A stretch of DNA of 30,141 bases from an uncultured Gammaproteobacteria bacterium. GTDB lineage: Bacteria > Patescibacteriota > Patescibacteriia > Magasanikbacterales > GCA-002688135. The notes beneath the pieces are model-generated. The model did no database searches and was not told the DNA's origin. It worked only from the letters and a program-made list of their open reading frames with translations. Position numbers and translations under genes: made by a program. The stretch lies in NCBI GenBank assembly GCA_964450455.1, contig CAYVCS010000127.1, forward strand, positions 1 to 30,141, given 5' to 3'. Below, piece after piece: positions 3,941 to 30,141 of this stretch (its first letter is position 1; every line of letters starts with the position of its first letter).

Positions 3941-5128
3941 TTATATATAACCAACGAGTGAAATTTTTAGGTGATGTATTTTAAAGCTTTCACGATACAT
4001 CAATGCTTGTAAAGCAAAAAAAGTTACCCACGCGTTGATATGTTTGTTAGGCAATACACCATCTATAGAATAAAAAAATCCTCCGCTATTCATGCTGTGA
4101 TGATACGCGCTACAAAGTCGTTGTTCTAAATGGTCAATTTTGTGCGGACTCGCTACACTATATCCGAGGGATTCTAGCGCACTCGACAATCGTAGTGTCT
4201 GCGCGATGACATCCATCCTCTGCAGTTGTGATGGTACACCATTGATAACAGACGCGGGAACTCCTCCATCTTCCGATTGATGAGACATACTCCATTGTAC
4301 AGCTTTTAAAATAGTGGGCAATAGTTCAGTCCGCTCTCGCGCTTGCGCATAATACAAGAGTCCTTCAGCGGTGTAGCTATGCGGGTGAAGTTCCACATGG
4401 TCACGATCTTTGAATGATACAAATGCGCCTGACGGCTGTTGAAAATTGAGTGAATAGGCAACTAATTTATCTAACGAAGCGTATAGCTCGCCATCATTAC
4501 GAACGCGGGCGTAATCAGATAATCCAATTAATGCTTTTGCGTGGTATGCTCCACTTTGTGTAGACCATTTTTCTGTATGATCAAACCAATCTTGTTTGAT
4601 AGCATCGTAATACGCATACATTGAACCATTAGATTTTTGTGATGAACATAAAAAACGAGCGAGAATATGAGCAGTATCTAAAAATGAATGATCGTTAAAT
4701 ACCTGAAAACACGCCATCAATCCATTTAAAACCATCGCGGTATCAAACACATATAATGTGTCTGCTGAAAAGTCAAAATGTTGATCATAGGTTGCGCTAT
4801 TTTGATAATATTTTCGAGTTCGCACTCCGCCTGAATTATGTAACGCAATTTCTTTAAGCCATTGATGCGCAATACGTGCTCGTTCGTGTAACATTGCTAG
4901 CTGTTGTGGTTGTTGACGTGCGAGATACGCAAAACATGAAAGTCCGTATCCAGTAATTTCACTATACATATACGGATATGTTCCATTTTCAAGGTCAAAC
5001 CATGCGTTAATAGCTCCGTTATGAGTAGGGTCAGACGAGTTATTTTGTATACCAGAATGTAAAATCCAATCTATGGTTGATGTTGCAAGTATCTCACGCG
5101 TGATTGGTTTTACGAGAGTTGTGTCCAT
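3941..5128 (-). CDS. (alpha/alpha)-toroid protein of unknown function (six-hairpin glycosidase / AGE-epimerase / prenyltransferase-repeat-like)
   Basis: YSEITGY motif and repeated helix-QxxxG(x)F/Y segments (QKSNGSMY, QQPSGAF, QSEDGGVP), HSYTAEGL, NAWVTFFALQAL. Fold assignment is by pattern recognition only. Confidence 0.6.
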   Translation of the reverse strand: MDTTLVKPITREILATSTIDWILHSGIQNNSSDPTHNGAINAWFDLENGTYPYMYSEITGYGLSCFAYLARQQPQQLAMLHERARIAHQWLKEIALHNSGGVRTRKYYQNSATYDQHFDFSADTLYVFDTAMVLNGLMACFQVFNDHSFLDTAHILARFLCSSQKSNGSMYAYYDAIKQDWFDHTEKWSTQSGAYHAKALIGLSDYARVRNDGELYASLDKLVAYSLNFQQPSGAFVSFKDRDHVELHPHSYTAEGLLYYAQARERTELLPTILKAVQWSMSHQSEDGGVPASVINGVPSQLQRMDVIAQTLRLSSALESLGYSVASPHKIDHLEQRLCSAYHHSMNSGGFFYSIDGVLPNKHINAWVTFFALQALMYRESFKIHHLKISLVGYI

Positions 5129-5140
5129 ACTTTCTAGGAT

Positions 5141-5507
5141 TTAGGAATTAGCTTGTTAGCTTCTTAGGACGTTGGCGGTCGCGACTTCTATTCGTGTCAT
5201 TCCCTTCAGCAGGACTAGCCCGACCGAGATCGGGAATCCACAACTCCGTCAACGTATACTAGGTTGTAGGAACTAGCTTCTTAGCTTATTAAGCGTTCAC
5301 GTTGGCGTTTCCTAAAAAGCTAACAAGCTAAATCCTAATATCTAGTTTAGCTAGCTTTTTAGCTTCTTAGGAAACTGTTACGTCAATCTCCTAAAAAGCT
5401 AATAAGCTAATTCCTAATGTCTAGCCTAGCTAGCTTCTTAGCTTATTAAGCGTTGACGTTCGTATTTCCTAAAAAGCTAATAAGCTAATTCCTAATACCT
5501 AGCTTAG
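5141..5507. repeat. Family A hairpin-repeat array (octamer CTAANAAG): three tandem 78/79-bp units plus a lone inverted arm
   Basis: Units 5273-5350, 5351-5429, 5430-5507 = 21-nt left arm + 17/18/17-nt variable loop + 29-nt right arm CCTAAAAAGCTAAYAAGCTAAWTCCTAAT + 11-nt linker; extra inverted arm at 5141-5168. Confidence 0.9.
5196..5240 (+). repeat. GTCAT-tagged REP-like palindrome, apparently interrupted
   Basis: GTCATTCCC...CCCGACCGAGATCGGGAATCCA; stems ATTCCC/GGGAAT and CCCGA/TCGGG; enclosed by a 9/10 inverted repeat (5169-5178 / 5246-5255). Confidence 0.6.
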
Positions 5508-5522
5508 CCTAGCTTAGTCGGA

Positions 5523-5552
5523 CAAAATAAAAAGTCACACTGTGTGTGACTT
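5523..5552 (-). terminator. Intrinsic terminator after the hexapeptide acyltransferase gene
   Basis: 9-bp stem AAGTCACAC/GTGTGACTT (5532-5540 / 5544-5552), 3-nt loop, running into TTTTTATTTT on the minus strand directly after the stop codon. Confidence 0.7.
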
Positions 5553-6174
5553 AAGAATACTTTATGATTTCATCATATGCAAGTATTGAAACTGTGATTA
5601 CCGCTTCGCATCCTTCACGAGTACACTGTAGGGTAAAAAATTCTTTTGTTTTGTCATCCATACTCACACGTTGAAATGCGATTCCACACTTACACACATA
5701 CTTAATAAATCGCGCGGGATGACCTTTTACAAGACAATAATCTGGAACAGAGTGTAATACTAATGAACGCATATGCACAAATGCATAACGACCAATGCTG
5801 ACACTTGGCGCAATTGATGACGCCATCCCAATTCTACATCCTTGTTGATATATGGTAGGTTTATCGTCCGAGATATCTCGGATACGATGCGATATCGGAG
5901 ATGGGTCATTAGCGTTTGCAACTTGCGGTCCGATAAATACATCGTCATAAACAATAAGTGGTCGATACAAGAGCGCGTGATTATGAATCATCACGTTGTT
6001 GCCAATTTTGACGTCGCGGTCAATATATACACCATTGCCAATCGTACAATTTTCTCCAATGACGGCTCCATCTCCAATTTGAACGAATGCCCAAATTTTT
6101 GTCCCTTTTCCTATTGTTACATTCTCACCAATGATAGAGGTCGCGTCACAGTACACACCTTCAGGAATGAGCAT
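5551..6174 (-). CDS. Hexapeptide-repeat (LbH) NDP-aminosugar N-acetyltransferase, WbpD-like, with C-terminal Cys cluster
   Basis: IGENVTIGKGTKIWAFVQIGDGAVIGENCTIGNGVYIDRDVKIG repeats, VFIGP, VPDYCLVKGHPAR, C-terminal CKC...CTREGC; SD GGGAG upstream. Confidence 0.85.
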   Translation of the reverse strand: MLIPEGVYCDATSIIGENVTIGKGTKIWAFVQIGDGAVIGENCTIGNGVYIDRDVKIGNNVMIHNHALLYRPLIVYDDVFIGPQVANANDPSPISHRIRDISDDKPTIYQQGCRIGMASSIAPSVSIGRYAFVHMRSLVLHSVPDYCLVKGHPARFIKYVCKCGIAFQRVSMDDKTKEFFTLQCTREGCEAVITVSILAYDEIIKYS

Positions 6175-7150
6175 GATGTTTCTCCCTTACAACTACTTTT
6201 TCAAAGAACCATTCAACATTCTTTCTTATTCCCTCTTTAATGTCAACAGACGTTGTATATCCAAACAATTCAAATGCAAGCGCAGGGTTACATCGCATGG
6301 TCTGTACTTCAGACATTCGCGCGTCTATATGCACAATATTTGAAGTTGAACGCGTGTACTCCTTAACCAAGTGGGCAACTTCATTGACTGTGACATCAAC
6401 ACCACTTCCAAAATTAACCGCGCGACCTATTGCTTTTTCATGTTCTCCCATAATAAGAAATCCACGAACTGTATCATCAACATAGGATAAATCACGTGTT
6501 TGGGTTCCATCACCATAAATCGTGATATCCTCTCCCGCGCACGCGAGTGCAATGAACTTCGGAATAACATCGTATGTGTGTCGTGGCCCATACGTATTGA
6601 ATGGACGAATAATCGCAACAGGCAATTTATAGGTAACATGATACGCAAACGCATATCGGTCGGCAGAAACTTTTGACGCTCCATACGGAGATGTTGGTCG
6701 TAATTCTGTGAGTTCATCAATCGCGCCAGAACAGTGTCCATATATTTCAGAACTTGAAGTAACCACAACTCTCTCCACGCCAGCATCCATTGCCGCTTGC
6801 AGAACATATAATGTACCTGTCGCGTTTGTTCTGTGAACTTCAAGTGGTTGCTTAAACGATTTGGGAACATACGCATCAGCCGCGAGATGAAAAATTATTT
6901 GTGGAGCAATATCTTTTATCATCATGACTGCATCAGGAGAACCAATGTCGCCTGCAATTATATGTTCAAGCTTTTCTTTGCAATGCAACAAATTTTTCAG
7001 TGTATTAACATGCGTTCCCGTAACAGAATTTCCGCGCACAAATATAGACACATACGCGCCTAATGCTATAAGTGCGTCCACGAGATGCGAACCCATAAAA
7101 CCGTCAGCACCGGTTACGAGAACGCGTTTTCCTTTATAGTAGTCGCTCAT
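6161..7150 (-). CDS. NAD-dependent NDP-sugar epimerase/dehydratase (extended SDR)
   Basis: VLVTGADGFMGSHL, HLAA, SSSEIYG, YGASK, RPFNTYGP, GDGTQTRD; SD AGGAG at 7156-7160. Confidence 0.93.
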   Translation of the reverse strand: MSDYYKGKRVLVTGADGFMGSHLVDALIALGAYVSIFVRGNSVTGTHVNTLKNLLHCKEKLEHIIAGDIGSPDAVMMIKDIAPQIIFHLAADAYVPKSFKQPLEVHRTNATGTLYVLQAAMDAGVERVVVTSSSEIYGHCSGAIDELTELRPTSPYGASKVSADRYAFAYHVTYKLPVAIIRPFNTYGPRHTYDVIPKFIALACAGEDITIYGDGTQTRDLSYVDDTVRGFLIMGEHEKAIGRAVNFGSGVDVTVNEVAHLVKEYTRSTSNIVHIDARMSEVQTMRCNPALAFELFGYTTSVDIKEGIRKNVEWFFEKVVVREKHHAHS

Positions 7151-7165
7151 AGCTTCTCCTTTTTG

Positions 7166-7822
7166 TTAGACAACACCGATTAATGCGGGAATTTCCCTTA
7201 ATGAACGTACTCCTAAATACGGAATTTGTAAAGCAGAGAATTCTTGCGCGGAAAATGTTCCTAAACGTGCGATGAATCCAAGTTGATTAGCATACGCCAT
7301 TCGCGCATCAGACAAAGAATCACCGACAAACAACATCGCATCAAAAGAAATATCAAATTGTTGCGTGATACTGTGTATATGATCTCGTCCCTTTTTAAAA
7401 CCTTTTCTAAATCCAAACGATGCATCAATCGGGAGCATATACCGACTGACATACTCACGAACATTTTCTTCCGCGTTATTACTTGAAATGATAGTTTTTA
7501 TCCCCTCATTTTGCAATTGCGTGAGCGTCTCTATAACGTCGTGAAATGGCGGCGTTCCAAACATTACCGACAATTTATTGTGTTCAAATTCTGACTCCGC
7601 AAAATTATTTCGCTGGTCTTTGCCTACAATAAGTTCAAGCTGTTCACAAAACGGCGCGCCTGATGTATCTATATATGCTTTCAATCCTTCACCCATTCTA
7701 ATGTCAAAAATTCTATAAAGCACATCTGCCGCAACTTCTGCATATCCATTCATCGTATCAGCAATCGTTCCATCAAAATCAAAGAGAATCGCTCGTGGTT
7801 TTTGAAAAACTTGAACACTCAT
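7166..7822 (-). CDS. HAD-superfamily hydrolase (phosphatase)
   Basis: Motif I LFDFDGTIADT, motif II ISSN, motif IV FVGDSLSD. Confidence 0.9.
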   Translation of the reverse strand: MSVQVFQKPRAILFDFDGTIADTMNGYAEVAADVLYRIFDIRMGEGLKAYIDTSGAPFCEQLELIVGKDQRNNFAESEFEHNKLSVMFGTPPFHDVIETLTQLQNEGIKTIISSNNAEENVREYVSRYMLPIDASFGFRKGFKKGRDHIHSITQQFDISFDAMLFVGDSLSDARMAYANQLGFIARLGTFSAQEFSALQIPYLGVRSLREIPALIGVV

Positions 7823-9534: not shown

Positions 9535-9653
9535 GACTGTAGAGAAATGCGATCTTCGGGCGCTTCGGTTTCAACCTCGTTCTACGTACTTTCGAGTACG
9601 TTTCACTTCGGTTCTCCCTCCAGCATCCCGAATCTCATCATTTCTCTACAGTC
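9535..9653. mobile_element. MITE-like non-autonomous element (119 bp)
   Basis: Perfect terminal inverted repeats GACTGTAGAGAAATG / CATTTCTCTACAGTC (15 bp, extendable to 16); flanking direct repeat ACTACCT-AT (9526-9534) / ACTACCTCAT (9654-9663); internal CTTCGG motifs and a CGTACT-TTCG-AGTACG hairpin; no coding capacity. Confidence 0.7.
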
Positions 9654-11563
9654 ACTACCTCATAAATTTGCACTCCTTCTGCATCATAAATTTTTTTAAT
9701 TCCTTTTAAATTTGAAACACCATACGATCCTAGTACTTTTTCGTAAGGTCCGTCGTACAAATAATCAACGTGATATTTTTGCAACAAATTTTCATTGCGT
9801 TCTATTTTTTTATATTCATCAAATAGATGTGACATCACCGCGCCAGAACTACCAAATGGCGTGCTGGATGCATATTCGTCGAGCGCATCACTTCTAAAAT
9901 AATTACCAAATAGTTGAAATCCAATTATATTTTCCGTGTATAGGGCATAGGAATCAGAACGACCACGTTGACCAGTTAAAGTATCATGTAATGTTGAATC
10001 AGCAATACTATATAATTTATTGATTGACAACCAGCGATCTATAATTTCTGAAAATGGAGCAGTTGACGAAAATGCTGAAGGGAGAACAGAGTATGAAGCT
10101 GTATAGACAGGAATTAAACCATTCATAACTGTAGAAGGAGTGCCGACGACACTACCTTTTGGAATATTTTTGTTCATAAACATGAGCGAGGAGCGAATTG
10201 AACGAGGCATTATGGAACGAGAGAAAAGTGCAGTGCCTTCACCATATTCAGCTTGAACTGACCTGAAGAGAATAACAGACGTTATACAAATCAATAAAAA
10301 ACTAACAAGAATTTTTACTTTTTGTTGAGAAACAACATGCCTAACGAAATATCGTAGAATAGTCACATATGCGAGTGACATACCAATATATATAGGTTCA
10401 AGCGAGGAGCTATAGAGAGGAAAATGAACGTCAAATATACGTTCCGCGTTCTTTATAATAAATCCAGAAAAAAGAAACGATACAATGAGCATGGCAAAGC
10501 GATGATGATTAGATTTTTTTCCCCACATAATAACTAATGCAATGAGCAGAGCAACTATCATGCCATATATCCAAAAATCATACAGAATTCCAGAAGATAT
10601 TGACGAGGGAAGGCGACGCCATAATTCTAGATTGTGTGGAAGTTTACTCAATGACCATATGTTGAGAAACAAGGGAATTGAGAAGACAAGAAAAAGTGGA
10701 ATCATTGCCATCAATGATTTTAATCCATCGGTATCGCGCATAATGAGCGACCACGCTACAAAAATTACAAGCGCTAATACCACATAGAGCGTAGCAGGAG
10801 GATAGATATACAGAAGTAATATAGAACAACCAGTAAAAATTCCAATCCATTTTTTGGTTTGTTGTTCGGTAAGTTTAAACAACGCATATACAGAACCTAT
10901 AAAAAGTGGCCACGCAGGAAATAGTGGGACTATCCCCTGTTTATCTAATAATAATTCTTTTGGATATTCTGCGGTAAAAAAAAGTGTTTTGAATAGCGCG
11001 CCAAGACCGATAACGTCATGAGGAATCAGATACAGTGCAAAATATGTTGCATTCGTAAATAAAAATGCAAATAGTATTGACCAAACAAACGATTGTATCA
11101 GCAGACGCGAAAGATGATATGAGAGAACAAACACCAAAATAGCAGATATAAATAATCCGCACACTAATTGAAAAGATAATGAACGAGTAATGAAAAATAA
11201 TGGAAACGAAAGAACTGGCGCAACCATATTCCACGAATATTGTAAACCATGTCCGAGCACTCTGCCATCACGTAAAAACCAATCCCCATCCACTACGTGA
11301 CGGAAAAATGGAGCGGAATTAATGAGATGTTCGGAATATAAAAATGAAAAAAAATCAATTGATACAGATTTTTGAACCTGTTGCATGCCGACAAAGATAT
11401 ACCGCACAATAAACAAAAATCCAGATATACTAGAGAATATTGCGATAAGTAGCGTCTCGCGACTACACGAAAAAGAAATTGAATGTTCTTTTTTGAATTG
11501 CTCAATAATTCGTTCTTTAGTTGAGCGAGAAACTGCATGGGGTGCGTTTGATTGTTCATCCAT
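9638..11563 (-). CDS. Polytopic membrane protein, GT-C-like glycosyltransferase
   Basis: About 12 hydrophobic segments plus a C-terminal soluble domain (...VGTPSTVMNGLIPVYT...YHVDYLYDGPYEK...GVQIYEV) paralogous to the C-terminal part of 15430-17991. Start moved to the ATG at 11563; the extension to 11662 runs through a repeat element. Confidence 0.65.
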   Translation of the reverse strand: MDEQSNAPHAVSRSTKERIIEQFKKEHSISFSCSRETLLIAIFSSISGFLFIVRYIFVGMQQVQKSVSIDFFSFLYSEHLINSAPFFRHVVDGDWFLRDGRVLGHGLQYSWNMVAPVLSFPLFFITRSLSFQLVCGLFISAILVFVLSYHLSRLLIQSFVWSILFAFLFTNATYFALYLIPHDVIGLGALFKTLFFTAEYPKELLLDKQGIVPLFPAWPLFIGSVYALFKLTEQQTKKWIGIFTGCSILLLYIYPPATLYVVLALVIFVAWSLIMRDTDGLKSLMAMIPLFLVFSIPLFLNIWSLSKLPHNLELWRRLPSSISSGILYDFWIYGMIVALLIALVIMWGKKSNHHRFAMLIVSFLFSGFIIKNAERIFDVHFPLYSSSLEPIYIGMSLAYVTILRYFVRHVVSQQKVKILVSFLLICITSVILFRSVQAEYGEGTALFSRSIMPRSIRSSLMFMNKNIPKGSVVGTPSTVMNGLIPVYTASYSVLPSAFSSTAPFSEIIDRWLSINKLYSIADSTLHDTLTGQRGRSDSYALYTENIIGFQLFGNYFRSDALDEYASSTPFGSSGAVMSHLFDEYKKIERNENLLQKYHVDYLYDGPYEKVLGSYGVSNLKGIKKIYDAEGVQIYEVVTVEK

Positions 11564-11600
11564 ATATAAGAATGTTTTATCATTAAACGTCAAATGAAGC

Positions 11601-11744
11601 CGTAGTGACAGAGTACTCCGAGGGGGTAGAGAACTCGTAGCACGTTCACTCCCAGCCAACACGTCATTTCGAGCCGAAGCGAGAAATCTCGTACACGTTC
11701 ATGTTCTCGAGATATCTACCCCTTCGGAGTACCATGTCACCACG
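11601..11744. repeat. REPIN-like composite palindrome with a central CGTC-tagged REP
   Basis: 30-bp arms 11601-11630 / 11715-11744 (4 mismatches; core GTACTCCGAGGGGGTAGA / TCTACCCCTTCGGAGTAC); central CGTCATTTCGAGCCGAAGCGAGAAATCT (11662-11689); internal direct repeat CTCGTA(G)CACGTTCA (11634-11648, 11688-11701). Confidence 0.7.
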
Positions 11745-11748
11745 ATTA

Positions 11749-11807
11749 GATATGACGTTGAAAGTGCGGTTTGATATGACGTTGAAAGTGCGGTTCGATA
11801 TGACGTT
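11749..11807 (+). repeat. 24-bp tandem repeat, about 2.5 copies
   Basis: GATATGACGTTGAAAGTGCGGTTY at 11749-11772 and 11773-11796, partial copy 11797-11807. Confidence 0.9.
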
Positions 11808-11819
11808 TAGATATATCAG

Positions 11820-12953
11820 TTAAGAACGTAATAAATTAATAATCTGTTGAGCTCGCTGTTCCCATGAATAGTTCAGTACAAATTCATATGCATGTTGAGG
11901 GCGAGAAAACGATGTATCGTTCATTGCCTCTTTAATTGCCTCCGCCAATGATGTTGGTTTGTCCGCTTCCGCAAAAAAAACTTTTTCTTCATCTACAATC
12001 TCACGAATACTTGGAATGTCGGTAACAACAACAGGTTTTTTTGTTGCCATATATTCAAACAATTTCAGTGGTGATGATTCATAATTTCCAATTGAAAATT
12101 GTGCAGATGTGGGCAAAACTAATACATCGGCACACGCGACATAGCGTAACATATCTTCTCTTTTTTTGAAACCACATAGTGTAACATTTGTGATGTGTTC
12201 ACGTGTCAGAAACTGACGCAGTACTACAACATCAGATTCTGTACCACCAATAAAAAGAAATTGCGTGGACTCGTCAAATAATTGAGCGCATCTCGCAAGC
12301 GAATACACACCTTTCCATGTATACAAATGTCCCGTATAGATAATATATTTTTTGTGTATATCTAATCCGAGTTGTTTCTTTGCGACGTCTTGAGACAACA
12401 ATTTAGAAAATACTTCACAATCAACTCCATGATGCGCTCTATGAATTTTTCGTGTTCTGCCAAATGTATTTTTAAGCAATTGTTCTTTAAAGTTATTGGT
12501 AACTACGACATACGGAAGTCCACGAATCATCATGGTATTCAACAGGGTCTTCGCTGGAGCATCGTGTATTTCATAACCAAAATGTGTAATGTATGGTCCT
12601 AACACAAACGAACTTATTGGGTCTCTTGAATATACTAAAGCCGACCTCATGGCAGGAATGTACGCTATAAGTCCAACGAGAAATGAGAATGCATGTAAGT
12701 AATACGCGATAGCGCGTGGAATATATTTGAAGGGAAATAAATCAATAGATCGTATTCTCGTAATTTTGAATGCGTTAGACGGGATTCCATAAAATTGAAA
12801 TGGATCTTCGGGATGATCAGTTTTGCGCATAGGAACTAACAGTTCAACATCCTCACCGTTGTTTGCAAACGCCAAACACATACGCATTATTTGCCACGAA
12901 TGTGCGCGTTCAGAGGGTAGTCGCATGTTAGCAATGTAAAATAGTTTTGACAT
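11820..12953 (-). CDS. Glycosyltransferase family 4
   Basis: N-terminal FYIANMRLPSERAHSWQIMRMC, YTGHLYTWKG, ESSPLKLFEYMA (EX7E), YSWEQRAQQI. Confidence 0.93.
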   Translation of the reverse strand: MSKLFYIANMRLPSERAHSWQIMRMCLAFANNGEDVELLVPMRKTDHPEDPFQFYGIPSNAFKITRIRSIDLFPFKYIPRAIAYYLHAFSFLVGLIAYIPAMRSALVYSRDPISSFVLGPYITHFGYEIHDAPAKTLLNTMMIRGLPYVVVTNNFKEQLLKNTFGRTRKIHRAHHGVDCEVFSKLLSQDVAKKQLGLDIHKKYIIYTGHLYTWKGVYSLARCAQLFDESTQFLFIGGTESDVVVLRQFLTREHITNVTLCGFKKREDMLRYVACADVLVLPTSAQFSIGNYESSPLKLFEYMATKKPVVVTDIPSIREIVDEEKVFFAEADKPTSLAEAIKEAMNDTSFSRPQHAYEFVLNYSWEQRAQQIINLLRS

Positions 12954-13607: not shown

Positions 13608-13615
13608 ATTTTTGG

Positions 13616-13668
13616 CGATTTTAGATTTATTTTACGATTTTAGATTTTAGATTGACGATTTTAGATTG
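13616..13668 (+). repeat. Family B heptamer repeat (TTTTAGA), single arm
   Basis: CGATTTTAGATT at 13616, 13635 and 13656; 13636-13658 is a 23/23 reverse-complement match to 18058-18080. Confidence 0.85.
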
Positions 13669-15429: not shown

Positions 15430-17991
15430 TTAATTAATTTTATAAATGGAAACTAAACCATGTTTGTACACCTCGTGTATATTGCTCAAACCAGACGAAT
15501 CAAAATGTCCCAGATATCTTTCATAGGGACCAACATACAAATAATCTGCGCGATACGGAAGTGCAATAATAGAGGATTTCAATACACGCGCGTCATTGAA
15601 TAATTTTTTAAGTCGTTCGTATTCATTTTGCGGAACTTTATATAATTCAGGATGAGAATAATCTGATTTCATACGACTCCTAAACGTATCGCAATACATT
15701 GTGTAGATAAGGTCAAAATCATAATTACGAATCATATTTTCAAATTTATTATATGAACCCCTAAATCCGCTGATAAACATTTTTTCGCTTACATCAAAAA
15801 TAGCGTACACATCAGCATATCTATGCTCCACTTCAGATTGTCTCGCGAGTGTGTAACATCCCAGTGGAACATACACATCCATATGGGTAAAAAACGGAAT
15901 ATACACATTCATACGAGTTGATGGAGTCACAATGACATCTCCATTCTCTGTATTCTCATTAATCCATCGAAAAGAATCTTGAATGTCAGTGGGAATTGTA
16001 TAAAGCGAAAATTCTCTTACACTCATCATGATAGTTAATGTTGTCGCACTCACTAAAAAAACAGCACAACTCAAAAGCATGATACGTTTTCCCCATCTAT
16101 GCATTGAGCGAGAATGATTCCAGAAAAAACGCTCTATCAATAATCCAACAATAACAAGAAGTGCAAATAATTTTGTATATACGGCAACTCTGCTTCCCCA
16201 ATGGTCTGGCTGTGGATTAAAGCCGATAAAAAGTTGCAAATTGATGACAATGTATGCGGGAATAAGTAATGAACCAAAAAAAAGTACTTTTTCTTTCTCA
16301 TGTTTCATGAAAAAAAAGTATAGTATTGCGCACATCACAACAACGAATATAAGCACATCAAACGATCCTTCTCGCACATATCTACCATACTCAATTCCTA
16401 CTCGTTCAACTAATTGCGGATATTCAGGAAGTGAGCGACTTTTCAGCATGTGGACAATATAGGGAATCGCGATAATCAAGGAAGTGGTGAAATACAACAT
16501 TATAGATTTCAAAAAAGTACGATAGAACAACAGCGTTCCTAGAAAAAGTATCAACGACATAACTGCCGCATATCCCGCATAAAAAAAATAAATATACGGT
16601 AATAATCCACACGAGATACCCGCAACAACTACTCGTATCCACGAAGGTTTCATCAGCATGCGAGCTGAACACAATAAAAAAATCAAGAAAAAAATAATTC
16701 CCGGCATAGGAATCATAAAACGCGTAACTGCGATATCAAATGAACGTTCAAAAAAATTAACTACACTAACGTCGTGAATATATGCGAGAGATGCAACAAT
16801 AATATTGGGGAAAAATAAAGTGATGATACTTATTAAACACGCACTTACTGTTGTCTTCAAAAAAACTTTGGCGAGATGATATAACACTAAAAATGCTAAC
16901 GCAGGAAACAATGCATCGCTCACACTATATACCCATGAAATATCAGTAACATTTAATAACCACAAAGGAAAACCGATAATTCGTGACAATAACATGTTTC
17001 CCCAAATATATAATCCCTGTTTATACTCATGTACATACGCATCCCCTTCTCTAAAATTACCGTCCACAACTTCACGAAGCCTTGAACCATACGCGGCCAT
17101 TTCGTCAAGCGTGGGAGCATTGAGAGAAAGTGGATGATATCCTTCTATGCCATACTGATGTTGCATATAGGGAATCAAGACATTAGGAATACTAAAAATA
17201 ATTGCAATGATACTTGCAATTACTAGAGCATACGTATGTTCAATAAAATAATTCTTCACCACACTCACACATCTTGGTGTAGACGAAAAAAAATACTCTA
17301 TTCTCCATCTCAATACTCTACATATCAATCGCAGATGACGTGGAATTTCTTTTTGATAACGTAATTTTGAATTACCAAATTCTCTATTTGCCAAGGGAGT
17401 TGGAATTTCCACAAATCTTGCTCCCGCAAAAAATAATTTAAAGAAAAATTCTATTGTTGTTTCAAATCCATTCGTCGTTAAACGTATTGATTTTGCAGAT
17501 TCAGTTTTTACCAAACGAAACAATGAGCTAATGCCATATACTCGTTTCCCACTCGCAAGTGAATACGCAATATTTGCAAGCCGACTAATCCAAATTCTCC
17601 ATTGAGGAATGTCGTCTCCGTAACCGGCAAGTCCATGTGAACCAATAACCATTTCAACATCACCCTCATTATAGCGGTCAAGTAAATTCTTAATGTAGCG
17701 TGGATGAAATGTCAAATCAGCATCCAAAAACACTAAAAGTTCAGAGCGACTATGCGCTATTCCCGTCCGCATTGCGGCACCCAGTCCTCCATTGCGCGCG
17801 TGTTGCACGACACGAAGATTGTCTAATCCACTCACATATAAACGTTGAAGCGTATCATCAGAACTTCCATCATTCACAGCTATAACTTCGTACGTTACAT
17901 TCAATTTTTTTAATTCTGGTTCAAGTATCTCCTTCAAACGAGGAATATTTCCGGATTCATTAAACGCGGGAATGATGATGCTTAAACGCAT
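15430..17991 (-). CDS. Fusion: polyprenol-phosphate glycosyltransferase (GT2, DPM1/ArnC-like) + GT-C-like membrane domain
   Basis: aa 1-~235 IIIPAFNE, NDGSSDDT, GLGAA, FLDADL, REFGNSK; then about 12 TM segments and a C-terminal domain ending YRADYLYVGPYER...VSIYKIN. Confidence 0.8.
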   Translation of the reverse strand: MRLSIIIPAFNESGNIPRLKEILEPELKKLNVTYEVIAVNDGSSDDTLQRLYVSGLDNLRVVQHARNGGLGAAMRTGIAHSRSELLVFLDADLTFHPRYIKNLLDRYNEGDVEMVIGSHGLAGYGDDIPQWRIWISRLANIAYSLASGKRVYGISSLFRLVKTESAKSIRLTTNGFETTIEFFFKLFFAGARFVEIPTPLANREFGNSKLRYQKEIPRHLRLICRVLRWRIEYFFSSTPRCVSVVKNYFIEHTYALVIASIIAIIFSIPNVLIPYMQHQYGIEGYHPLSLNAPTLDEMAAYGSRLREVVDGNFREGDAYVHEYKQGLYIWGNMLLSRIIGFPLWLLNVTDISWVYSVSDALFPALAFLVLYHLAKVFLKTTVSACLISIITLFFPNIIVASLAYIHDVSVVNFFERSFDIAVTRFMIPMPGIIFFLIFLLCSARMLMKPSWIRVVVAGISCGLLPYIYFFYAGYAAVMSLILFLGTLLFYRTFLKSIMLYFTTSLIIAIPYIVHMLKSRSLPEYPQLVERVGIEYGRYVREGSFDVLIFVVVMCAILYFFFMKHEKEKVLFFGSLLIPAYIVINLQLFIGFNPQPDHWGSRVAVYTKLFALLVIVGLLIERFFWNHSRSMHRWGKRIMLLSCAVFLVSATTLTIMMSVREFSLYTIPTDIQDSFRWINENTENGDVIVTPSTRMNVYIPFFTHMDVYVPLGCYTLARQSEVEHRYADVYAIFDVSEKMFISGFRGSYNKFENMIRNYDFDLIYTMYCDTFRSRMKSDYSHPELYKVPQNEYERLKKLFNDARVLKSSIIALPYRADYLYVGPYERYLGHFDSSGLSNIHEVYKHGLVSIYKIN

Positions 17992-18005
17992 AGGAGTCTT
18001 TTTAA

Positions 18006-18092
18006 TTTTTGATTGATGATTTTAGATTTTAGATTTACGACGACGAGCAACACGAAATCGTCAATCTAAAATCTAAAATCATCAATCTAAAA
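18006..18092. repeat. Family B heptamer hairpin, 35-bp arms with a 17-nt loop
   Basis: Left arm 18006-18040 and right arm 18058-18092 are 33/35 inverted; loop CGACGAGCAACACGAAA. Confidence 0.92.
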
Positions 18093-18100
18093 TCATCTTG

Positions 18101-18775
18101 CTAGAGTGAAATTTTAACTAAATCCGAATGTCGTTCACCTTTTTGATATACTCCACGACGAAGATATTGAACGGGTCCGATCCACGCTCCCGTTTGAATA
18201 AATGTTCCTGGTTCTAGCACTGTATTGCAACCAACTTTTACATCATCTCCAAGAACTGCTCCAAATTTAATCATCCCTGTTGACATAGTCCCAGCAGGAA
18301 TTGCCTTTGCGTCAAGACGATAATTTGCCAAAATCACTCCCGCGCCAATATTAGAATGCGAACCCAAAATACAATCGCCAATAAAATTAAAATGTGGCGC
18401 GGCGGCATGGTTCATCATAATTGTATTTTTTGCTTCGGTACAATGTCCAATGATACTTCTATTTCCTAAAATTGTATTTCCGCGAATATACGCTCCTGTG
18501 CCAATAATTGAATTTGGTCCGATATAACATGGCCCTTCAATATAGGCAGTCGGCTCTATTTTTGCCCCTTCTGCAACCATCACATCTCCTTTTAATATAG
18601 CTTGAGGATGAACAATTCCTTGAATCCACTGATCGCGAGGAGTTGCTGAAAATAATTTCTCAAGATATTTTTCAGAACGTTCAAACACTTGCCACACAAA
18701 CTCAACTCCTTCAAACAATTCCTTGTGCATGTACTCGTCTAAATTAAAGTAGCGTGATGGATGAAATTCATTCAT
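18101..18775 (-). CDS. Stand-alone hexapeptide-repeat protein resembling the acetyltransferase (LbH) half of GlmU
   Basis: IEGPCYIGPNSIIGTGAYIRGNTILG, EAKNTIMMNHAAAPHFNFIGDCILG, NIGAGVILANYRLD, KFGAVLGDDVKVGCNTVLEPG; no nucleotidyltransferase domain. Confidence 0.85.
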   Translation of the reverse strand: MNEFHPSRYFNLDEYMHKELFEGVEFVWQVFERSEKYLEKLFSATPRDQWIQGIVHPQAILKGDVMVAEGAKIEPTAYIEGPCYIGPNSIIGTGAYIRGNTILGNRSIIGHCTEAKNTIMMNHAAAPHFNFIGDCILGSHSNIGAGVILANYRLDAKAIPAGTMSTGMIKFGAVLGDDVKVGCNTVLEPGTFIQTGAWIGPVQYLRRGVYQKGERHSDLVKISL

Positions 18776-28990: not shown

Positions 28991-29020
28991 TTCTTTTTAT
29001 TGTTCAACATATTACAAAAT

Positions 29021-29971
29021 ATGAAAGTTTTAATAACAGGTTCAAGTGGTGAAATCGGAACCAATCTTGGACTCACCTTGCAAGCAAGAGGAGATACGAT
29101 ATTTGGAGTGGATAAACGTCTAAATACATGGACTGACAAAATTCCAACACTTCTTCAAGATTTATCACAGCGATTTGAAAATTACAAAGGAGGAATTGGT
29201 TCTGCTCTTTATGATACGCCTGACGTTGTTGTTCATCTAGCGGCTAATGCAAAAGTTCATGAACTCGTAGAACACCCCCAACGAGCGCTTGATAACATTA
29301 TCATCACATTTAATGTTTTAGAATATTGTCGCATAAACAATATTCCGATAATCTATGCGAGCTCTAGGGAAGTGTACGGAGATATGCATCGTTTTGAAAC
29401 AGCAGAACATACGATTAACGAACCAACTGCGAATTTTGTATTTACCGAAAGCACCTATAGCGCAAGTAAAATTGCCGGAGAATCTCTGATTTATTCGTAC
29501 GCGCAATGTTATAAACTTCCCTACATTATTTTTCGTTTTTCAAATGTGTATGGTAGATATGACAATGACCTAGCGCGCATGGAGAGAGTGATTCCTTTAT
29601 TTATTGAAAAAATAAAATCAGGAAAACCAGTCGTCATTTTCGGTAAAGAAAAAAAACTTGATTTTACGTATGTTGATGATACAGTTCAAGGAATCGTAAA
29701 AGGAATTGACGCATTAACGTCAGCACGAGTTACAAATCAAACCATCAATCTTGCCTATGGCGAAGGACGGACACTTACTGAATTGGTTTCATACATTTCA
29801 GATACTCTGAATATGCCTACGACGCCGACATACGAGGAAGCGCGACCTGGAGAAATTACTTTTTTTGTCGCAGATATAACAAAAGCAAAAGAACTTTTAG
29901 GATATGAACCAACAACGTCATTACAAGCTGGTATTAAAAAAGCAATCGCATGGCAGAGTTTAGCTTTTTAG
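29021..29971 (+). CDS. NAD-dependent NDP-sugar epimerase/dehydratase (extended SDR)
   Basis: VLITGSSGEIGTNL, HLAANA, YASSREVYG, YSASK, FRFSNVYG, DFTYVDD. ATG at 29021 preferred over the TTG at 29000. Confidence 0.92.
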   Translation: MKVLITGSSGEIGTNLGLTLQARGDTIFGVDKRLNTWTDKIPTLLQDLSQRFENYKGGIGSALYDTPDVVVHLAANAKVHELVEHPQRALDNIIITFNVLEYCRINNIPIIYASSREVYGDMHRFETAEHTINEPTANFVFTESTYSASKIAGESLIYSYAQCYKLPYIIFRFSNVYGRYDNDLARMERVIPLFIEKIKSGKPVVIFGKEKKLDFTYVDDTVQGIVKGIDALTSARVTNQTINLAYGEGRTLTELVSYISDTLNMPTTPTYEEARPGEITFFVADITKAKELLGYEPTTSLQAGIKKAIAWQSLAF

Positions 29972-30085
29972 GAAATTAGCTTTTTAGCTTATTAGGACGC
30001 ACCCTAAAAAGCTAATAAGCTAGTTCCTAATACGGGTGTCGGTCATTCGCCTAAAAAGCTAAAAAGCTAGTTCCTAAAAGGCTAA
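29960..30085. repeat. Family A octamer repeats (second locus)
   Basis: Left arms 29960-29972 and 29976-29996, 6-nt loop, right arms CCTAAAAAGCTAAWAAGCTAGTTCCTAA at 30003-30030 and 30050-30077; nearly identical to the right arms at 5311, 5390 and 5468. Confidence 0.9.
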
Positions 30086-30091
30086 AGAGGT

Positions 30092-30141
30092 ATGTCTCAA
30101 CACAAGAAAAAAATTCTTCATCTGATTACACAAGCGGAATT
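30092..30141 (+). CDS. Partial CDS at the window edge, probably a GT4 N-terminus
   Basis: ATG at 30092 gives MSQHKKKILHLITQAE..., resembling the KILxxIT(Q/K)xxxGG start of GT4 enzymes; only 16 codons visible. Confidence 0.5.
   Translation, partial: MSQHKKKILHLITQAE

What the first reader, a model, noticed from the sequence alone, without database searches (positions are those of the whole stretch)
5141..5507. Array of 78/79-bp hairpin units built from a CTAANAAG octamer, each with a different 17-18-nt loop
Seen: three exact-period units (21-nt left arm, variable loop, 29-nt right arm, 11-nt CTAG-rich linker). Arms pair at 17-18/21, and the mismatches fall mostly at the octamer N position, 8 nt apart. 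Loops differ (CGTTCACGTTGGCGTTT, AAACTGTTACGTCAATCT, CGTTGACGTTCGTATTT) but all contain ACGT, and the lone arm at 5141-5168 is also followed by ACGTTGGCG. Inference: conserved arms, programmed mismatches and a semi-variable loop look more like a processed or recombined ssDNA/RNA substrate or a multi-site protein-binding array than a simple microsatellite. I do not recognise it as a named element.
Basis: partly seen in the sequence, partly recalled or inferred. Interest (0 to 1): 0.7.

Follow-up and report, generated by a model that had tools for sequence, protein, structure and literature searches.

The report
Intergenic hairpin-repeat cluster, widespread in Patescibacteria
A 420-base gap between two sugar-pathway genes holds three tandem copies of a hairpin-forming repeat whose arms are strings of the 8-letter unit TAGCTTNT. 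The same hairpins sit between genes in many lineages of the ultra-small Patescibacteria (CPR), which looks like an undescribed REP-like repeat family of unknown function.

Summary
Positions 5134-5517 hold one full 36-nt left arm, a 90-nt foreign insert, then three 78/79-bp hairpin units. Arm mismatches fall at the octamer N.

It is not a local oddity. A second site lies at 29959-30092. In the source metagenome the repeat is 20-100 times deeper than its flanks.

The motif CTAANAAGCTAANAAGCTA hit at least 119 genome loci. 75 carry Patescibacteria (CPR) names, from at least ten named CPR lineages.

- 94% of arm clusters are non-coding.
- The order is TAGCTT-arm, loop, AAGCTA-arm (43 cases against 7 for the reverse order).
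- Stems start at the upstream stop codon and end about 6 nt before the next start.
- Hairpins sit inside ribosomal-protein operons.

Hits in 16 clearly non-CPR genomes and 44 viral contigs are one-way tandem arrays, essentially without partner arms.

N is a nearly free position, not a programmed mismatch. Compensatory changes are rare, and folding shows no sense-strand advantage.

The hairpins are not canonical terminators, CRISPR, uptake sequences or any Rfam family.

Best reading (about 0.45): a REP/BIME-like extragenic palindrome family, co-transcribed and acting as intercistronic stem-loops read by an unknown sequence-specific factor. A purely selfish repeat is the main rival.

I found no prior description.

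The parts
5134..5169 (.). Full-length left arm L1 (CTAGGATTTAGGAATTAGCTTGTTAGCTTCTTAGGA). It has no adjacent right arm and ends 5 nt from the start codon (5128) of the minus-strand gene 3941-5128.
   Evidence: inverted-repeat pairs I1-I3 show 82-89% complementarity to each of the three right arms.
5170..5259 (.). G+C-rich insert of about 90 nt. Its ends are inverted (ACGTTGGCGG ... CCGTCAACGT). It sits where a loop would be and is followed by another left arm instead of a right arm.
   Evidence: for the sequence; word depth is up to about 1000 in run X1 at 5220-5244, against 4.5-11.6 in the flanking genes. It is absent from the other loci and from JGI metagenome contigs. It has no Rfam match, and its fold is no better than shuffles.
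5260..5345 (.). Hairpin unit A: left arm 5260-5293, loop CGTTCACGTTGGCGTTT at 5294-5310, right arm 5310-5345.
   Evidence: minimum free energy -30.8 kcal/mol on the minus strand and -28.1 on the plus strand, z -5.5 and -4.8.
5346..5424 (.). Hairpin unit B: left arm 5346-5372, loop about 5373-5388, right arm 5389-5424. Its loop is the reverse complement of the loop type in units A and C.
   Evidence: -33.7 kcal/mol on the minus strand and -22.5 on the plus strand. Loop comparison by direct reading of the sequence.
5425..5502 (.). Hairpin unit C: left arm 5425-5450, loop CGTTGACGTTCGTATTT at 5451-5467, right arm 5467-5502. It is 90% identical to unit A over 79 nt at a spacing of 157 bp.
   Evidence: (direct-repeat family D2).
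5503..5517 (.). CTAG-rich tail (CTTAGCCTAGCTTAG), a degenerate partial left arm.
   Evidence: period 10, two copies, at 5498-5517.
5532..5552 (-). Canonical intrinsic terminator of the hexapeptide-acyltransferase gene 5551-6174. It has a 9-bp stem followed by TTTTTATTTT and lies between that gene and the array.
   Evidence: The two nearest homologous operons have a comparable small hairpin plus T-tract in this spacer, but no array.
29959..30092 (.). Second site of the same family: left arms 29959-29996, right arm 30003-30030, second right arm 30050-30086. The first TAG units supply the stop codon of the epimerase gene 29000-29971, and an ATG follows at about 30092.
   Evidence: -30.4 kcal/mol, z -5.4.

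Best explanation
**What it is (high confidence).** The locus is a cluster of a dispersed, high-copy family of extragenic inverted repeats.
- Each element is a 5' arm made of 2-5 tandem TAGCTTNT units, a variable loop, and a 3' arm made of ANAAGCTA units.
- The family is found across Patescibacteria (CPR).
- The window's triple array most likely grew by tandem duplication of a 78/79-bp unit (or a 157-bp double unit), as BIME clusters of REP elements do. It grew inside an otherwise tight operon junction.

**How it most likely works (inferred, moderate confidence).**
- The elements are co-transcribed with their flanking cistrons.
- They fold into imperfect RNA stems of 20-40 bp, with a frequent 1x1 mismatch every 8 nt, that fill the gap between a stop codon and the next start codon.
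- They act as intercistronic punctuation: a double-stranded handle for processing or 3'-end protection (an RNase III-type cut or an exonuclease barrier).
- As a by-product or extra function, they act as a stop barrier in all three reading frames. UAG recurs every 8 nt in the 5' arm and UAA in the 3' arm, on either strand.
- The 6-nt core TAGCTT is conserved across classes while N is free and pairing is not maintained by compensatory change. An unknown sequence-specific factor, protein or nuclease, is therefore inferred to read the units.
For: **Family and copy number**
- 13 motif matches in the window against 0.02 expected, at two separate intergenic sites.
- The repeat region is 200-1000 deep against 4.5-11.6 for its flanks in the source metagenome. 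Many contigs join the same arms through different loops.
- The genome scan was cut at 119 loci. 75 carry CPR names spanning at least ten named CPR lineages, and 20 genomes were hit on two or three contigs.
- Loci with at least one hairpin: 39 of the 75 CPR-named and 7 of the 14 unnamed-bacterium loci.
- Controls with a partner arm: 0 of 16 loci from clearly non-CPR taxa and 2 of 44 viral hits.

**Placement**
- 94% of 196 arm clusters are non-coding, against 16% non-coding DNA overall. The order left-arm then right-arm occurs 43 times against 7.
- The median distance from stop codon to stem edge is -2 nt, and from stem edge to start codon +6 nt.
- Hairpins lie inside conserved operons: L23|L2, L22|S3, after S3 and after L14 in L021; S10|L3 in L074; and directly downstream of the S12 gene in five loci, with S7 confirmed as the next gene by reading in L087.
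- An orthologous hairpin is retained in two Peribacteria species whose flanking proteins are 79-84% identical.

**Transcription**
- Contigs from an aquifer metatranscriptome cover the left arm, the loop and most of the right arm, and run on into rplC in L074.

**Window context**
- The two flanking genes are fused into one protein in other organisms (P0032, P0103).
- In the nearest syntenic operons these two genes are separated by only 39-47 nt. The array therefore sits inside a functional unit.

**Stability**
- Five of the six single-unit folds have z from -4.4 to -8.2.
Against: - **No sense-strand bias.** Among 34 hairpins between same-direction genes, the sense-strand RNA fold is more stable in 11 and less stable in 23 (p = 0.19). 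There is therefore no G-U signature of selection on RNA pairing.
- **Few compensatory changes.** At unit position 6 there are 6 compensated changes against 40 one-sided ones.
- **Symmetry.** Conservation is symmetric on both strands, which suits a DNA-level reader equally well.
- **Terminators inside loops.** In several loci a canonical terminator sits inside the loop (L110, L032, L050, L046, L009, L004). In those loci the two arms may end up on different transcripts.
- **Terminator ahead of the array.** In the window a terminator precedes the array, and no sigma-70-like promoter was found. Transcription of this particular array is therefore unproven.
- **Weak RNA evidence.** It consists of assembled contigs without strand information, which may include contaminating DNA.
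- **Ribosomal RNA leader.** The one 16S leader available (L043) has no such arms.
- **Other hairpin families.** Other tandem-unit hairpins in the same genomes have 9-nt units or no stop codons. This weakens the all-frame stop idea.
Confidence: 0.45

Rival explanations
1. It is a selfish REP/MITE-like mobile palindrome. The tandem octamers would be multiple binding sites for a transposase or REP-associated tyrosine transposase (RAYT)-type enzyme at the two ends of a minimal element. Copies would spread into tolerated intergenic sites and have no host function.
For: - Copy number is high, and the same arms are joined through different internal sequences.
- The loop carries variable cargo: short loops, genome-specific inserts of 90-135 nt (the window; L072), and small four-helix-bundle genes.
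- About 40% of arm clusters are lone arms.
- The window shows nested and tandem clustering.
- The window's full-length arms end in CTAG on the outside.
- The orthologous operon junction in the nearest relatives is only 39-47 nt and lacks the array.
- Conservation is of sequence, not of pairing.
Against: - No transposase was found in the window.
- Termini are not fixed, and the number of units per arm varies from 2 to 5.
- No target-site duplication could be shown.
- The same 6-nt core in at least ten named CPR lineages is unlike REPs, which are species-specific (my knowledge).
- Hairpins are retained at orthologous sites across species and recur downstream of the S12 gene in five loci.
- The empty sites come from relatives only 45-47% identical, so they do not show recent insertion.
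Confidence: 0.27
2. It is a DNA-level array of binding sites for a conserved CPR DNA-binding protein, such as a nucleoid, insulator or boundary factor. The hairpin potential would be a side effect of the sites being arranged as inverted arrays.
For: - The core is conserved while N is free.
- There is almost no compensatory change.
- Folding shows no sense-strand advantage.
- The elements occur in tandem, convergent and divergent gene contexts in roughly background proportions.
Against: - An 8-bp period is out of phase with the DNA helix (my knowledge).
- No candidate protein is known.
- The strict order of left arm then right arm, and the tight fit between stop and start codons, are more easily explained at the transcript level.
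- RNA contigs span the element.
Confidence: 0.13
3. They are transcription terminators or attenuators of an unusual CPR type.
For: - The stems begin at stop codons.
- Convergent gene pairs are slightly over-represented: 19% against 14% background.
Against: - No T-tract follows the stems and no A-tract precedes them.
- The stems are A+T-rich.
- They sit between cistrons of the S10 and str ribosomal operons.
- The same genomes contain ordinary G+C-rich terminators with T-tracts, sometimes inside the loop of these hairpins.
- In the window a canonical terminator already precedes the array.
Confidence: 0.06
4. It is neutral slippage-derived DNA. Alternatively, it is a CRISPR-like or uptake-signal array.
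For: - Arm length varies by whole units.
- One-way arrays of the same octamer do arise by chance or slippage in unrelated genomes and viruses.
- The three units are tandem duplicates.
Against: - **Slippage:** it does not explain inverted pairing, the fixed arm order, conservation across phyla, or retention at orthologous sites.
- **CRISPR:** the units are inverted rather than direct, the 'spacers' are 17-18 nt and related to one another, and no cas domains are present.
- **Uptake signals:** TAGCTT is not enriched in coding DNA, ranking 93 of 120 permutations.
Confidence: 0.04

Closest known systems
REP elements and their BIME clusters (Enterobacteria, Pseudomonas)
   Same: - Imperfect extragenic palindromes of 20-40 nt in many copies.
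- They occur between cistrons and at gene ends.
- They cluster in alternating orientation with two kinds of short spacer, as in this window.
- They are known to be co-transcribed and to stabilise upstream mRNA (my knowledge).
   Different: - Here the arms are tandem arrays of an 8-nt unit with a free position.
- The number of units per arm varies.
- The same core recurs across at least ten named CPR lineages, whereas REPs are species-specific.
- No RAYT gene or defined GTAG end was shown.
Palindromic MITEs processed in mRNA: Correia/nemis elements of Neisseria, and ERIC elements
   Same: - Terminal inverted repeats flank a short, variable interior.
- They are inserted next to genes and co-transcribed.
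- Their long hairpins are cut by RNase III or RNase E, which changes the level of neighbouring genes' transcripts (my knowledge).
   Different: - Those elements have fixed length, fixed termini and a TA target duplication.
- None of these features was demonstrable here.
- Here the loop ranges from 0 to about 700 nt and the arms are modular.
Intervening sequences of 23S rRNA that carry the 23S_rRNA_IVP (four-helix-bundle) gene
   Same: - In four loci (L085, L088, L109, and L084 where the gene is interrupted) a left arm and a right arm bracket a small gene of this Pfam family. In L003 a complete hairpin lies upstream of the gene and a right arm downstream.
- The family's first described members sit in the loop of an RNase III-cleaved stem (my knowledge).
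   Different: - The genes here are not inside rRNA.
- The one 16S leader seen has no such arms.
- The association may simply reflect that many genes are bracketed by these arms.
UAG/GAG-repeat RNA sites of HutP and TRAP (Bacillus)
   Same: - A 5' arm carries UAG triplets at regular short spacing. The 7-nt variant gives UAG-N4-UAG, as in HutP sites.
- In HutP and TRAP a ring-shaped protein binds such repeats and decides whether a hairpin forms (my knowledge).
   Different: - Here six bases are conserved, not three.
- The main period is 8 nt.
- There are many sites per genome, not one operon.
- No HutP or TRAP homologue was looked for or found.
DNA uptake sequences (the DUS of Neisseria and the USS of Haemophilus)
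   Same: - A short, lineage-wide motif in high copy number.
- It often occurs as inverted pairs between genes.
- At least some Saccharibacteria, a CPR lineage, are naturally competent (abstract of PMC10187176, listed).
   Different: - The single unit is not over-represented in coding DNA.
- The units come as tandem arrays.

Membership tests
REP/BIME | Short imperfect palindromes, extragenic, in many copies per genome. | tested here: met
   94% of arm clusters are non-coding. Several sites fall within single 8-kb loci. Depth in the source metagenome is 20-100 times that of the flanks. True per-genome counts were not obtainable.
REP/BIME | Clusters of units in alternating orientation separated by short spacers of fixed type. 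| tested here: met
   The window has four left arms and three right arms alternating, with loops of 16-18 nt and CTAG-rich linkers between a right arm and the next left arm.
REP/BIME | An associated RAYT (IS200/IS605-type Y1 transposase) and a conserved GTAG end. | tested here: inconclusive
   The window has no such domain among the proteins scanned. The rest of the genome is unavailable. GTAG occurs only in the 7-nt unit variant.
REP/BIME | The sequence is specific to a species or genus. | tested here: not met
   The same core occurs in at least ten named CPR lineages.
MITE | Terminal inverted repeats with fixed termini and a target-site duplication. | tested here: inconclusive
   Inverted arms are present. 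However, the number of units varies and the outer ends are not conserved between genomes. CTAG at both outer ends is seen only in the window.
MITE | A parent insertion sequence with the same ends, and insertion polymorphism. | tested here: not met
   No transposase was found between arms in any locus examined. The only 'empty' sites are in relatives 45-47% identical. Orthologous hairpins are retained between species.
Intrinsic terminator | A G+C-rich stem followed by a U-tract. | tested here: not met
   Base composition shows no T-tract or A-tract around 63 hairpins. The stems are A+T-rich. The promoter/terminator scan called only the separate hairpin at 5532-5552.
CRISPR array | Direct repeats of 23-55 nt, unique spacers of similar length, and cas genes nearby. 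| tested here: not met
   The arms are inverted, the loops are 17-18 nt and related to one another, and no cas domains were found.
Any Rfam family | A match at the family's gathering score. | tested here: not met
   No match at gathering score over the whole window. In the permissive search only far sub-threshold hits to generic microRNA-hairpin models appeared.
DNA uptake sequence | Genome-wide over-representation of the unit, including in coding DNA. | tested here: not met
   TAGCTT/AAGCTA occurs 185 times in 607 kb of coding DNA, against a median of 250 for its 120 permutations (rank 93).
RNase III processing stem | About 20 bp or more of double-stranded RNA, with cleavage leaving 2-nt 3' overhangs. 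| not testable with these tools
   Stem length is adequate, at 18-60 nt with a median of 32. No read-level RNA data were available. Only unstranded RNA contigs span one hairpin.

The most novel reading that the evidence does not exclude
Patescibacteria may share a lineage-wide, sequence-specific gene-boundary code.
- Cistrons would be bracketed by (ANAAGCUA)n on the 5' side and (UAGCUUNU)n on the 3' side.
- Neighbouring brackets would pair into hairpins, or the two ends of one mRNA would pair with each other.
- A conserved, still unknown factor would read the units, for example a repeat-binding ring protein or a dedicated double-strand nuclease.
- This would punctuate, stabilise and translationally insulate transcripts in organisms with few classical regulators.
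Probability: 0.15. Interest if true: 0.85.

Novelty: new variant of a known kind. Interest (0 to 1): 0.6.

Why it matters
Patescibacteria are a very large, mostly uncultured part of bacterial diversity. How they organise gene expression is almost unknown.

**Biological interest**
- A single short unit, TAGCTTNT, builds hairpins between genes in at least ten named CPR lineages.
- These hairpins occur even inside ribosomal-protein operons.
- This points either to a conserved post-transcriptional or boundary mechanism with an unidentified reader, or to an unusually ancient and successful selfish repeat.
- Either outcome can be tested in the few Saccharibacteria that can now be manipulated genetically.

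**Practical uses**
- The family is a likely contributor to contig breaks in CPR assemblies.
- It may serve as a taxonomic marker for CPR contigs.
- It offers a ready set of natural insulator or stem-loop parts for CPR genetics.

Tried and rejected
- **Rfam.** The gathering-score search of the whole window found nothing. The permissive search of 5050-5620 found only far sub-threshold hits to generic microRNA hairpins.
- **tRNA and tmRNA.** None in the window. No tRNA lies within 120 nt of any element in the loci, and no rRNA lies next to one.
- **Promoter in the array.** No sigma-70-like site at 4900-5800. Reading by hand found TTGACG in some loops, but in inconsistent orientation and without a usable -10 element.
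- **RNA evidence for the window.** Only DNA metagenome runs hold it. No RNA run was found for L048. The run for L107 did not cover the hairpin. Only L074 gave RNA contigs.
- **Source contig and organism.** Three exact-protein look-ups failed. The window's taxon is not established. CPR origin is inferred only from where the repeat family occurs.
- **The 90-nt insert.** No relatives among the loci. Two scans of JGI metagenome contigs were empty.
- **Viral contigs.** 44 hits, all simple one-way arrays, so they served as a negative control.
- **Sense-strand G-U test.** Negative.
- **Compensatory-change test.** Weak.
- **Uptake-sequence test.** Negative.
- **All-frame stop idea as a general rule.** Weakened, because other tandem-unit hairpin families have 9-nt periods or no stop codons.
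- **Literature.** Five searches and two papers read found no description of these repeats. This is not proof of novelty, because the library is incomplete.
Full report
**1. What is at the coordinates**

The finding lies in a 422-bp spacer (5129-5550) between two minus-strand genes.
- The upstream gene is a hexapeptide-repeat acyltransferase (5551-6174). The downstream gene is a 395-aa protein with a weak alpha/alpha-barrel match (3941-5128).
- The window as a whole is a polysaccharide-biosynthesis locus at 37% G+C. It holds glycosyltransferases, methyltransferases, epimerases, an MBOAT acyltransferase and a polysaccharide deacetylase.

Read on the plus strand, the spacer contains the following:

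| Coordinates | Element |
|---|---|
| 5134-5169 | full 36-nt left arm |
| 5170-5259 | G+C-rich insert with inverted ends |
| 5260-5345 | hairpin unit A |
| 5346-5424 | hairpin unit B |
| 5425-5502 | hairpin unit C |
| 5503-5517 | CTAG-rich tail |
| 5532-5552 | canonical terminator of the acyltransferase gene (minus strand) |

- Tandem Repeats Finder gives a 79-bp period with 3.1 copies.
- The repeat finder gives spacings of 79 and 78 bp, 90% identity between units A and C at a 157-bp spacing, and 36-nt inverted arms that are 82-89% complementary.
- The motif CTAANAAGCTAANAAGCTA occurs 13 times in the window against 0.02 expected.
- Five of the six single-unit folds have z from -4.4 to -8.2, and the whole spacer has z -9.8.
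- Loops 1 and 3 are related, matching at 13 of 17 positions. Loop 2 matches them only as a reverse complement, at 10 of 17 against 2 of 17 forward. Unit B is therefore flipped relative to A and C (my count on the sequence).

**2. It is one locus of a dispersed family**

- A second site lies at 29959-30092. The first TAG units there supply the stop codon of an epimerase gene, and the last right arm ends just before an ATG.
- In the metagenome runs that hold the window, the repeat region has a word depth of 200-1000 against 4.5-11.6 for the flanking genes.
- Many contigs in those runs join the same arms through different internal sequences.

**3. Distribution across genomes**

By my arithmetic about 70 chance hits are expected in 596 Gb at equal base frequencies.
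- 75 loci carry CPR names: Saccharibacteria, Peribacteria/Peregrinibacteria, Altimarinota, Parcubacteria/Paceibacteria, and the Nomura-, Moran-, Kerfeld-, Buchanan-, Colwell-, Wildermuth-, Nealson-, Doudna-, Berkel- and Dojkabacteria.
- A further 14 are unnamed bacteria and 30 carry other names. 20 genomes were hit on two or three contigs.

| Source of the hits | Number of hits | With a partner arm forming a hairpin |
|---|---|---|
| CPR-named loci | 75 | 39 |
| Unnamed bacteria | 14 | 7 |
| MAGs labelled Gamma/Deltaproteobacteria and similar | 14 | 5 |
| Clearly non-CPR taxa (Nostoc, Vibrio, Shewanella and others) | 16 | 0 |
| Viral contigs | 44 | 2 |

The last two rows are a useful control. 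They show what unrelated occurrences look like, namely one-way tandem arrays.

**4. Anatomy of the family (119 genome loci plus the window)**

- There are 196 clusters of two or more units. 94% are non-coding, although 84% of the DNA is coding.
- The order TAGCTT-arm then AAGCTA-arm occurs 43 times against 7. Three of those 7 are the junctions inside the window's own array.
- 63 non-redundant hairpins have stems of 18-60 nt and loops of 0-142 nt. Loop sequence is unrelated between genomes.
- Unit spacing is 8 nt in 71% of cases, 7 nt in 12% and 9 nt in 8%. Arms most often have 3 units.
- Arm-arm mismatch rates by unit position are T 5%, A 0.5%, G 1%, C 8%, T 4%, T 20%, N 60% and T 21%.
- N is Watson-Crick in 40% of cases, against 26% expected if the arms were independent.
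- Changes elsewhere are seldom compensated.
It reflects a free position in a conserved unit, not a designed mismatch.
- No A-tract or T-tract flanks the stems.

**5. Position relative to genes**

- Gene-orientation contexts are close to background: tandem 71%, convergent 19%, divergent 10%.
- Stems abut or overlap the upstream stop codon (median -2 nt) and end a few nucleotides before the next start codon (median +6). They often fill the whole gap.
- They lie inside operons that are conserved throughout bacteria. Examples are L23|L2, L22|S3, after S3 and after L14 in L021, and S10|L3 in L074.
- They also lie directly downstream of the S12 gene in L087, L094, L105, L028 and L085. In L087 the next gene reads as S7. 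Others lie upstream of genes that read as fusA, tuf, groEL, rpmJ and rplU.
- Two Peribacteria species keep a hairpin at the same junction, with flanking proteins 79-84% identical. N positions and loops differ between them.
- Ordinary terminators (G+C-rich stem plus T-tract) exist in the same genomes, sometimes inside the loop of these hairpins.
- Genes of the 23S_rRNA_IVP family are associated with arms in five loci.

**6. The window's junction compared with relatives**

- The 395-aa protein's nearest relatives are 45-47% identical and sit in the same gene order: HAD hydrolase, epimerase, hexapeptide transferase, barrel protein.
- In those relatives the two genes are separated by only 39-47 nt, which hold a small hairpin plus T-tract. 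No TAGCTT clusters occur anywhere in those loci.
- In two other organisms the two genes are fused into one protein (P0032, P0103).
- The array is therefore a lineage-specific addition inside a functional unit, placed between a conserved attenuator-like terminator and the next start codon.

**7. Tests bearing on mechanism**

- *Transcription.* Contigs from an aquifer metatranscriptome cover L074 at 7046-7145 (left arm, loop and 17 nt of the right arm) and at 7117-7240 into rplC. This is weak evidence, because the contigs are unstranded and may include DNA.
- *RNA-specific pairing.* The window's three units fold better on the sense strand. Across 34 hairpins between same-direction genes there is no such bias (11 against 23, p = 0.19).
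- *Uptake-signal model.* The unit is not enriched in coding DNA.
- *Stop codons.* The 8-nt period puts TAG (5' arm) and TAA (3' arm) in all three frames on either strand, as the sequence shows directly. Other tandem-unit hairpin families in the same genomes use 9-nt units or lack stop codons, so this cannot be the general rule.
- *Promoters.* None of sigma-70 type were found in the spacer.

**8. Interpretation**

Shown:
- A dispersed, high-copy, intergenic, hairpin-forming repeat family with a conserved 6-nt core and modular arms.
- The family is largely confined to CPR genomes among the hits examined.
- The window's array is a tandemly duplicated cluster of this family.

Inferred:
- The elements are co-transcribed and act as intercistronic RNA stem-loops for processing, 3'-end protection and translational insulation.
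- An unknown sequence-specific factor reads the units. This follows from the core being conserved while N is free and pairing is not maintained by compensation.

I put this reading at about 0.45.

The main rival, at about 0.27, is a selfish REP/MITE-like element with no host function. A DNA-level protein-binding array is at about 0.13. Terminators, slippage, CRISPR-like arrays and uptake signals are largely excluded.

**9. Comparison with known systems**

- The closest analogues are REP/BIME clusters and the palindromic MITEs that are processed in mRNA (Correia/nemis, ERIC).
- The locus passes the descriptive criteria for REP/BIME: extragenic, palindromic, multi-copy, with alternating clusters.
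- It fails species-specificity, and no RAYT could be shown.
- It fails or leaves open the MITE criteria of fixed ends, target duplication and a parent insertion sequence.
- I therefore file it as a new variant of a known kind, not as a member of any named family.
- Five literature searches and two CPR genome papers gave no description of it. One of those papers notes only that short repeats left a few regions of CPR assemblies not completely resolved (PMC3812714).

**10. Limits**

- The window's organism is not identified.
- The genome scan was truncated, so prevalence among CPR species is unknown.
- The loci were chosen by the motif. Statistics on unit period and arm length are therefore biased toward well-formed copies.
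- Gene calls in the loci are simple ORF calls using genetic code 11.
- No read-level RNA data were available.

Noticed in passing
window 5170-5259 (core 5195-5254): A G+C-rich insert of about 90 nt with inverted ends (ACGTTGGCGG / CCGTCAACGT) is itself the most repeated sequence here. Depth reaches about 1000 in run X1 at 5220-5244, against 4.5-11.6 for the genes. Other copies have different flanks, and 'empty' hairpins with the loop ACGTTGGCGGTCATTT also exist. It has no Rfam match, no relatives in the other loci or in JGI metagenome contigs, and a fold no better than shuffles.
   Followed up: partly
window 17998-18100 and 13610-13667: A second family of hairpins with tandem-unit arms. At 17998-18100, (GATTTTA)n arms form a 50-nt stem (-44.3 kcal/mol, z -10.8) that fills the gap between genes 18101-18775 and 15430-17991. 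A one-way array of the same unit lies at 13610-13667.
   Followed up: partly
window 5381-5389, 13649-13657, 18059-18067: AGATTGACG occurs exactly three times, against about 0.2 expected by my arithmetic. Each copy lies at or beside the arm units of an intergenic repeat, in both repeat families. Orientation relative to the genes is not consistent.
   Followed up: partly
window 11583-11807: A 55-nt inverted repeat (11583-11637 and 11708-11762, 78% complementary) overlaps 2.5 copies of a 24-bp tandem repeat (GATATGACGTTGAAAGTGCGGTTC, 11749-11807). It lies at the junction between genes 9638-11662 and 11820-12953.
   Followed up: no
window 3941-6174; proteins P0032 and P0103; loci L164-L167: The hexapeptide acyltransferase and the alpha/alpha-barrel protein that flank the array are fused into single proteins of 562 and 526 aa in other organisms. 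In the nearest syntenic operons they are only 39-47 nt apart. This suggests a functional pair in an unidentified sugar-modification pathway.
   Followed up: partly
L085 1467-2184, L088 1878-2383, L109 6640-7062, L084 3825-4556, L003 4073-4958: Small genes of the 23S_rRNA_IVP (four-helix-bundle) family are associated with arms. A left arm and a right arm bracket the gene in L085, L088, L109 and L084. In L003 a complete hairpin lies upstream and a right arm downstream. In L084 the gene appears interrupted by an insertion whose translation looks like a GIY-YIG nuclease (read by eye, not tested).
   Followed up: partly
L077 719-791: Read in one frame, a right arm made partly of 7-nt units has no stop codon. 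It appears to encode the basic N-terminal leader (KKLKSYKLQAS-RGFTLVELLV) of a type IV pilin-like gene (hand translation).
   Followed up: no
genome loci, e.g. L004 5382-5493, L011 5813-5950, L023 6309-6373, L070 3291-3400, L075 2430-2487 and 3217-3284, L083 1116-1192: CPR intergenic regions hold many other hairpins whose arms are tandem arrays of different 7-9-nt units (AAGTCCATA, AACTCTA, TATAAAGTC, CGATACA, TTAGGAG, CGTTAACT, AAGGGTTGT). Hairpins with tandem-unit arms may be a general feature of CPR genomes.
   Followed up: partly
L039/L085, L050, L055/L080, L063/L070, L047: Metagenome-assembled genomes deposited as Gammaproteobacteria or Deltaproteobacteria carry multiple TAGCTT sites. Typical hairpins were detected in L047, L050, L063, L070 and L080. 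L063 and L085 also encode proteins most similar to those of the CPR loci. Their taxonomic labels may be wrong.
   Followed up: no
L072 3414-3620 and 5052-5256: In one marine-biofilm Patescibacteria genome, two hairpins carry near-identical 117- and 135-nt internal sequences. This is a genome-specific 'cargo' analogous to the window's insert, but unrelated to it in sequence.
   Followed up: no
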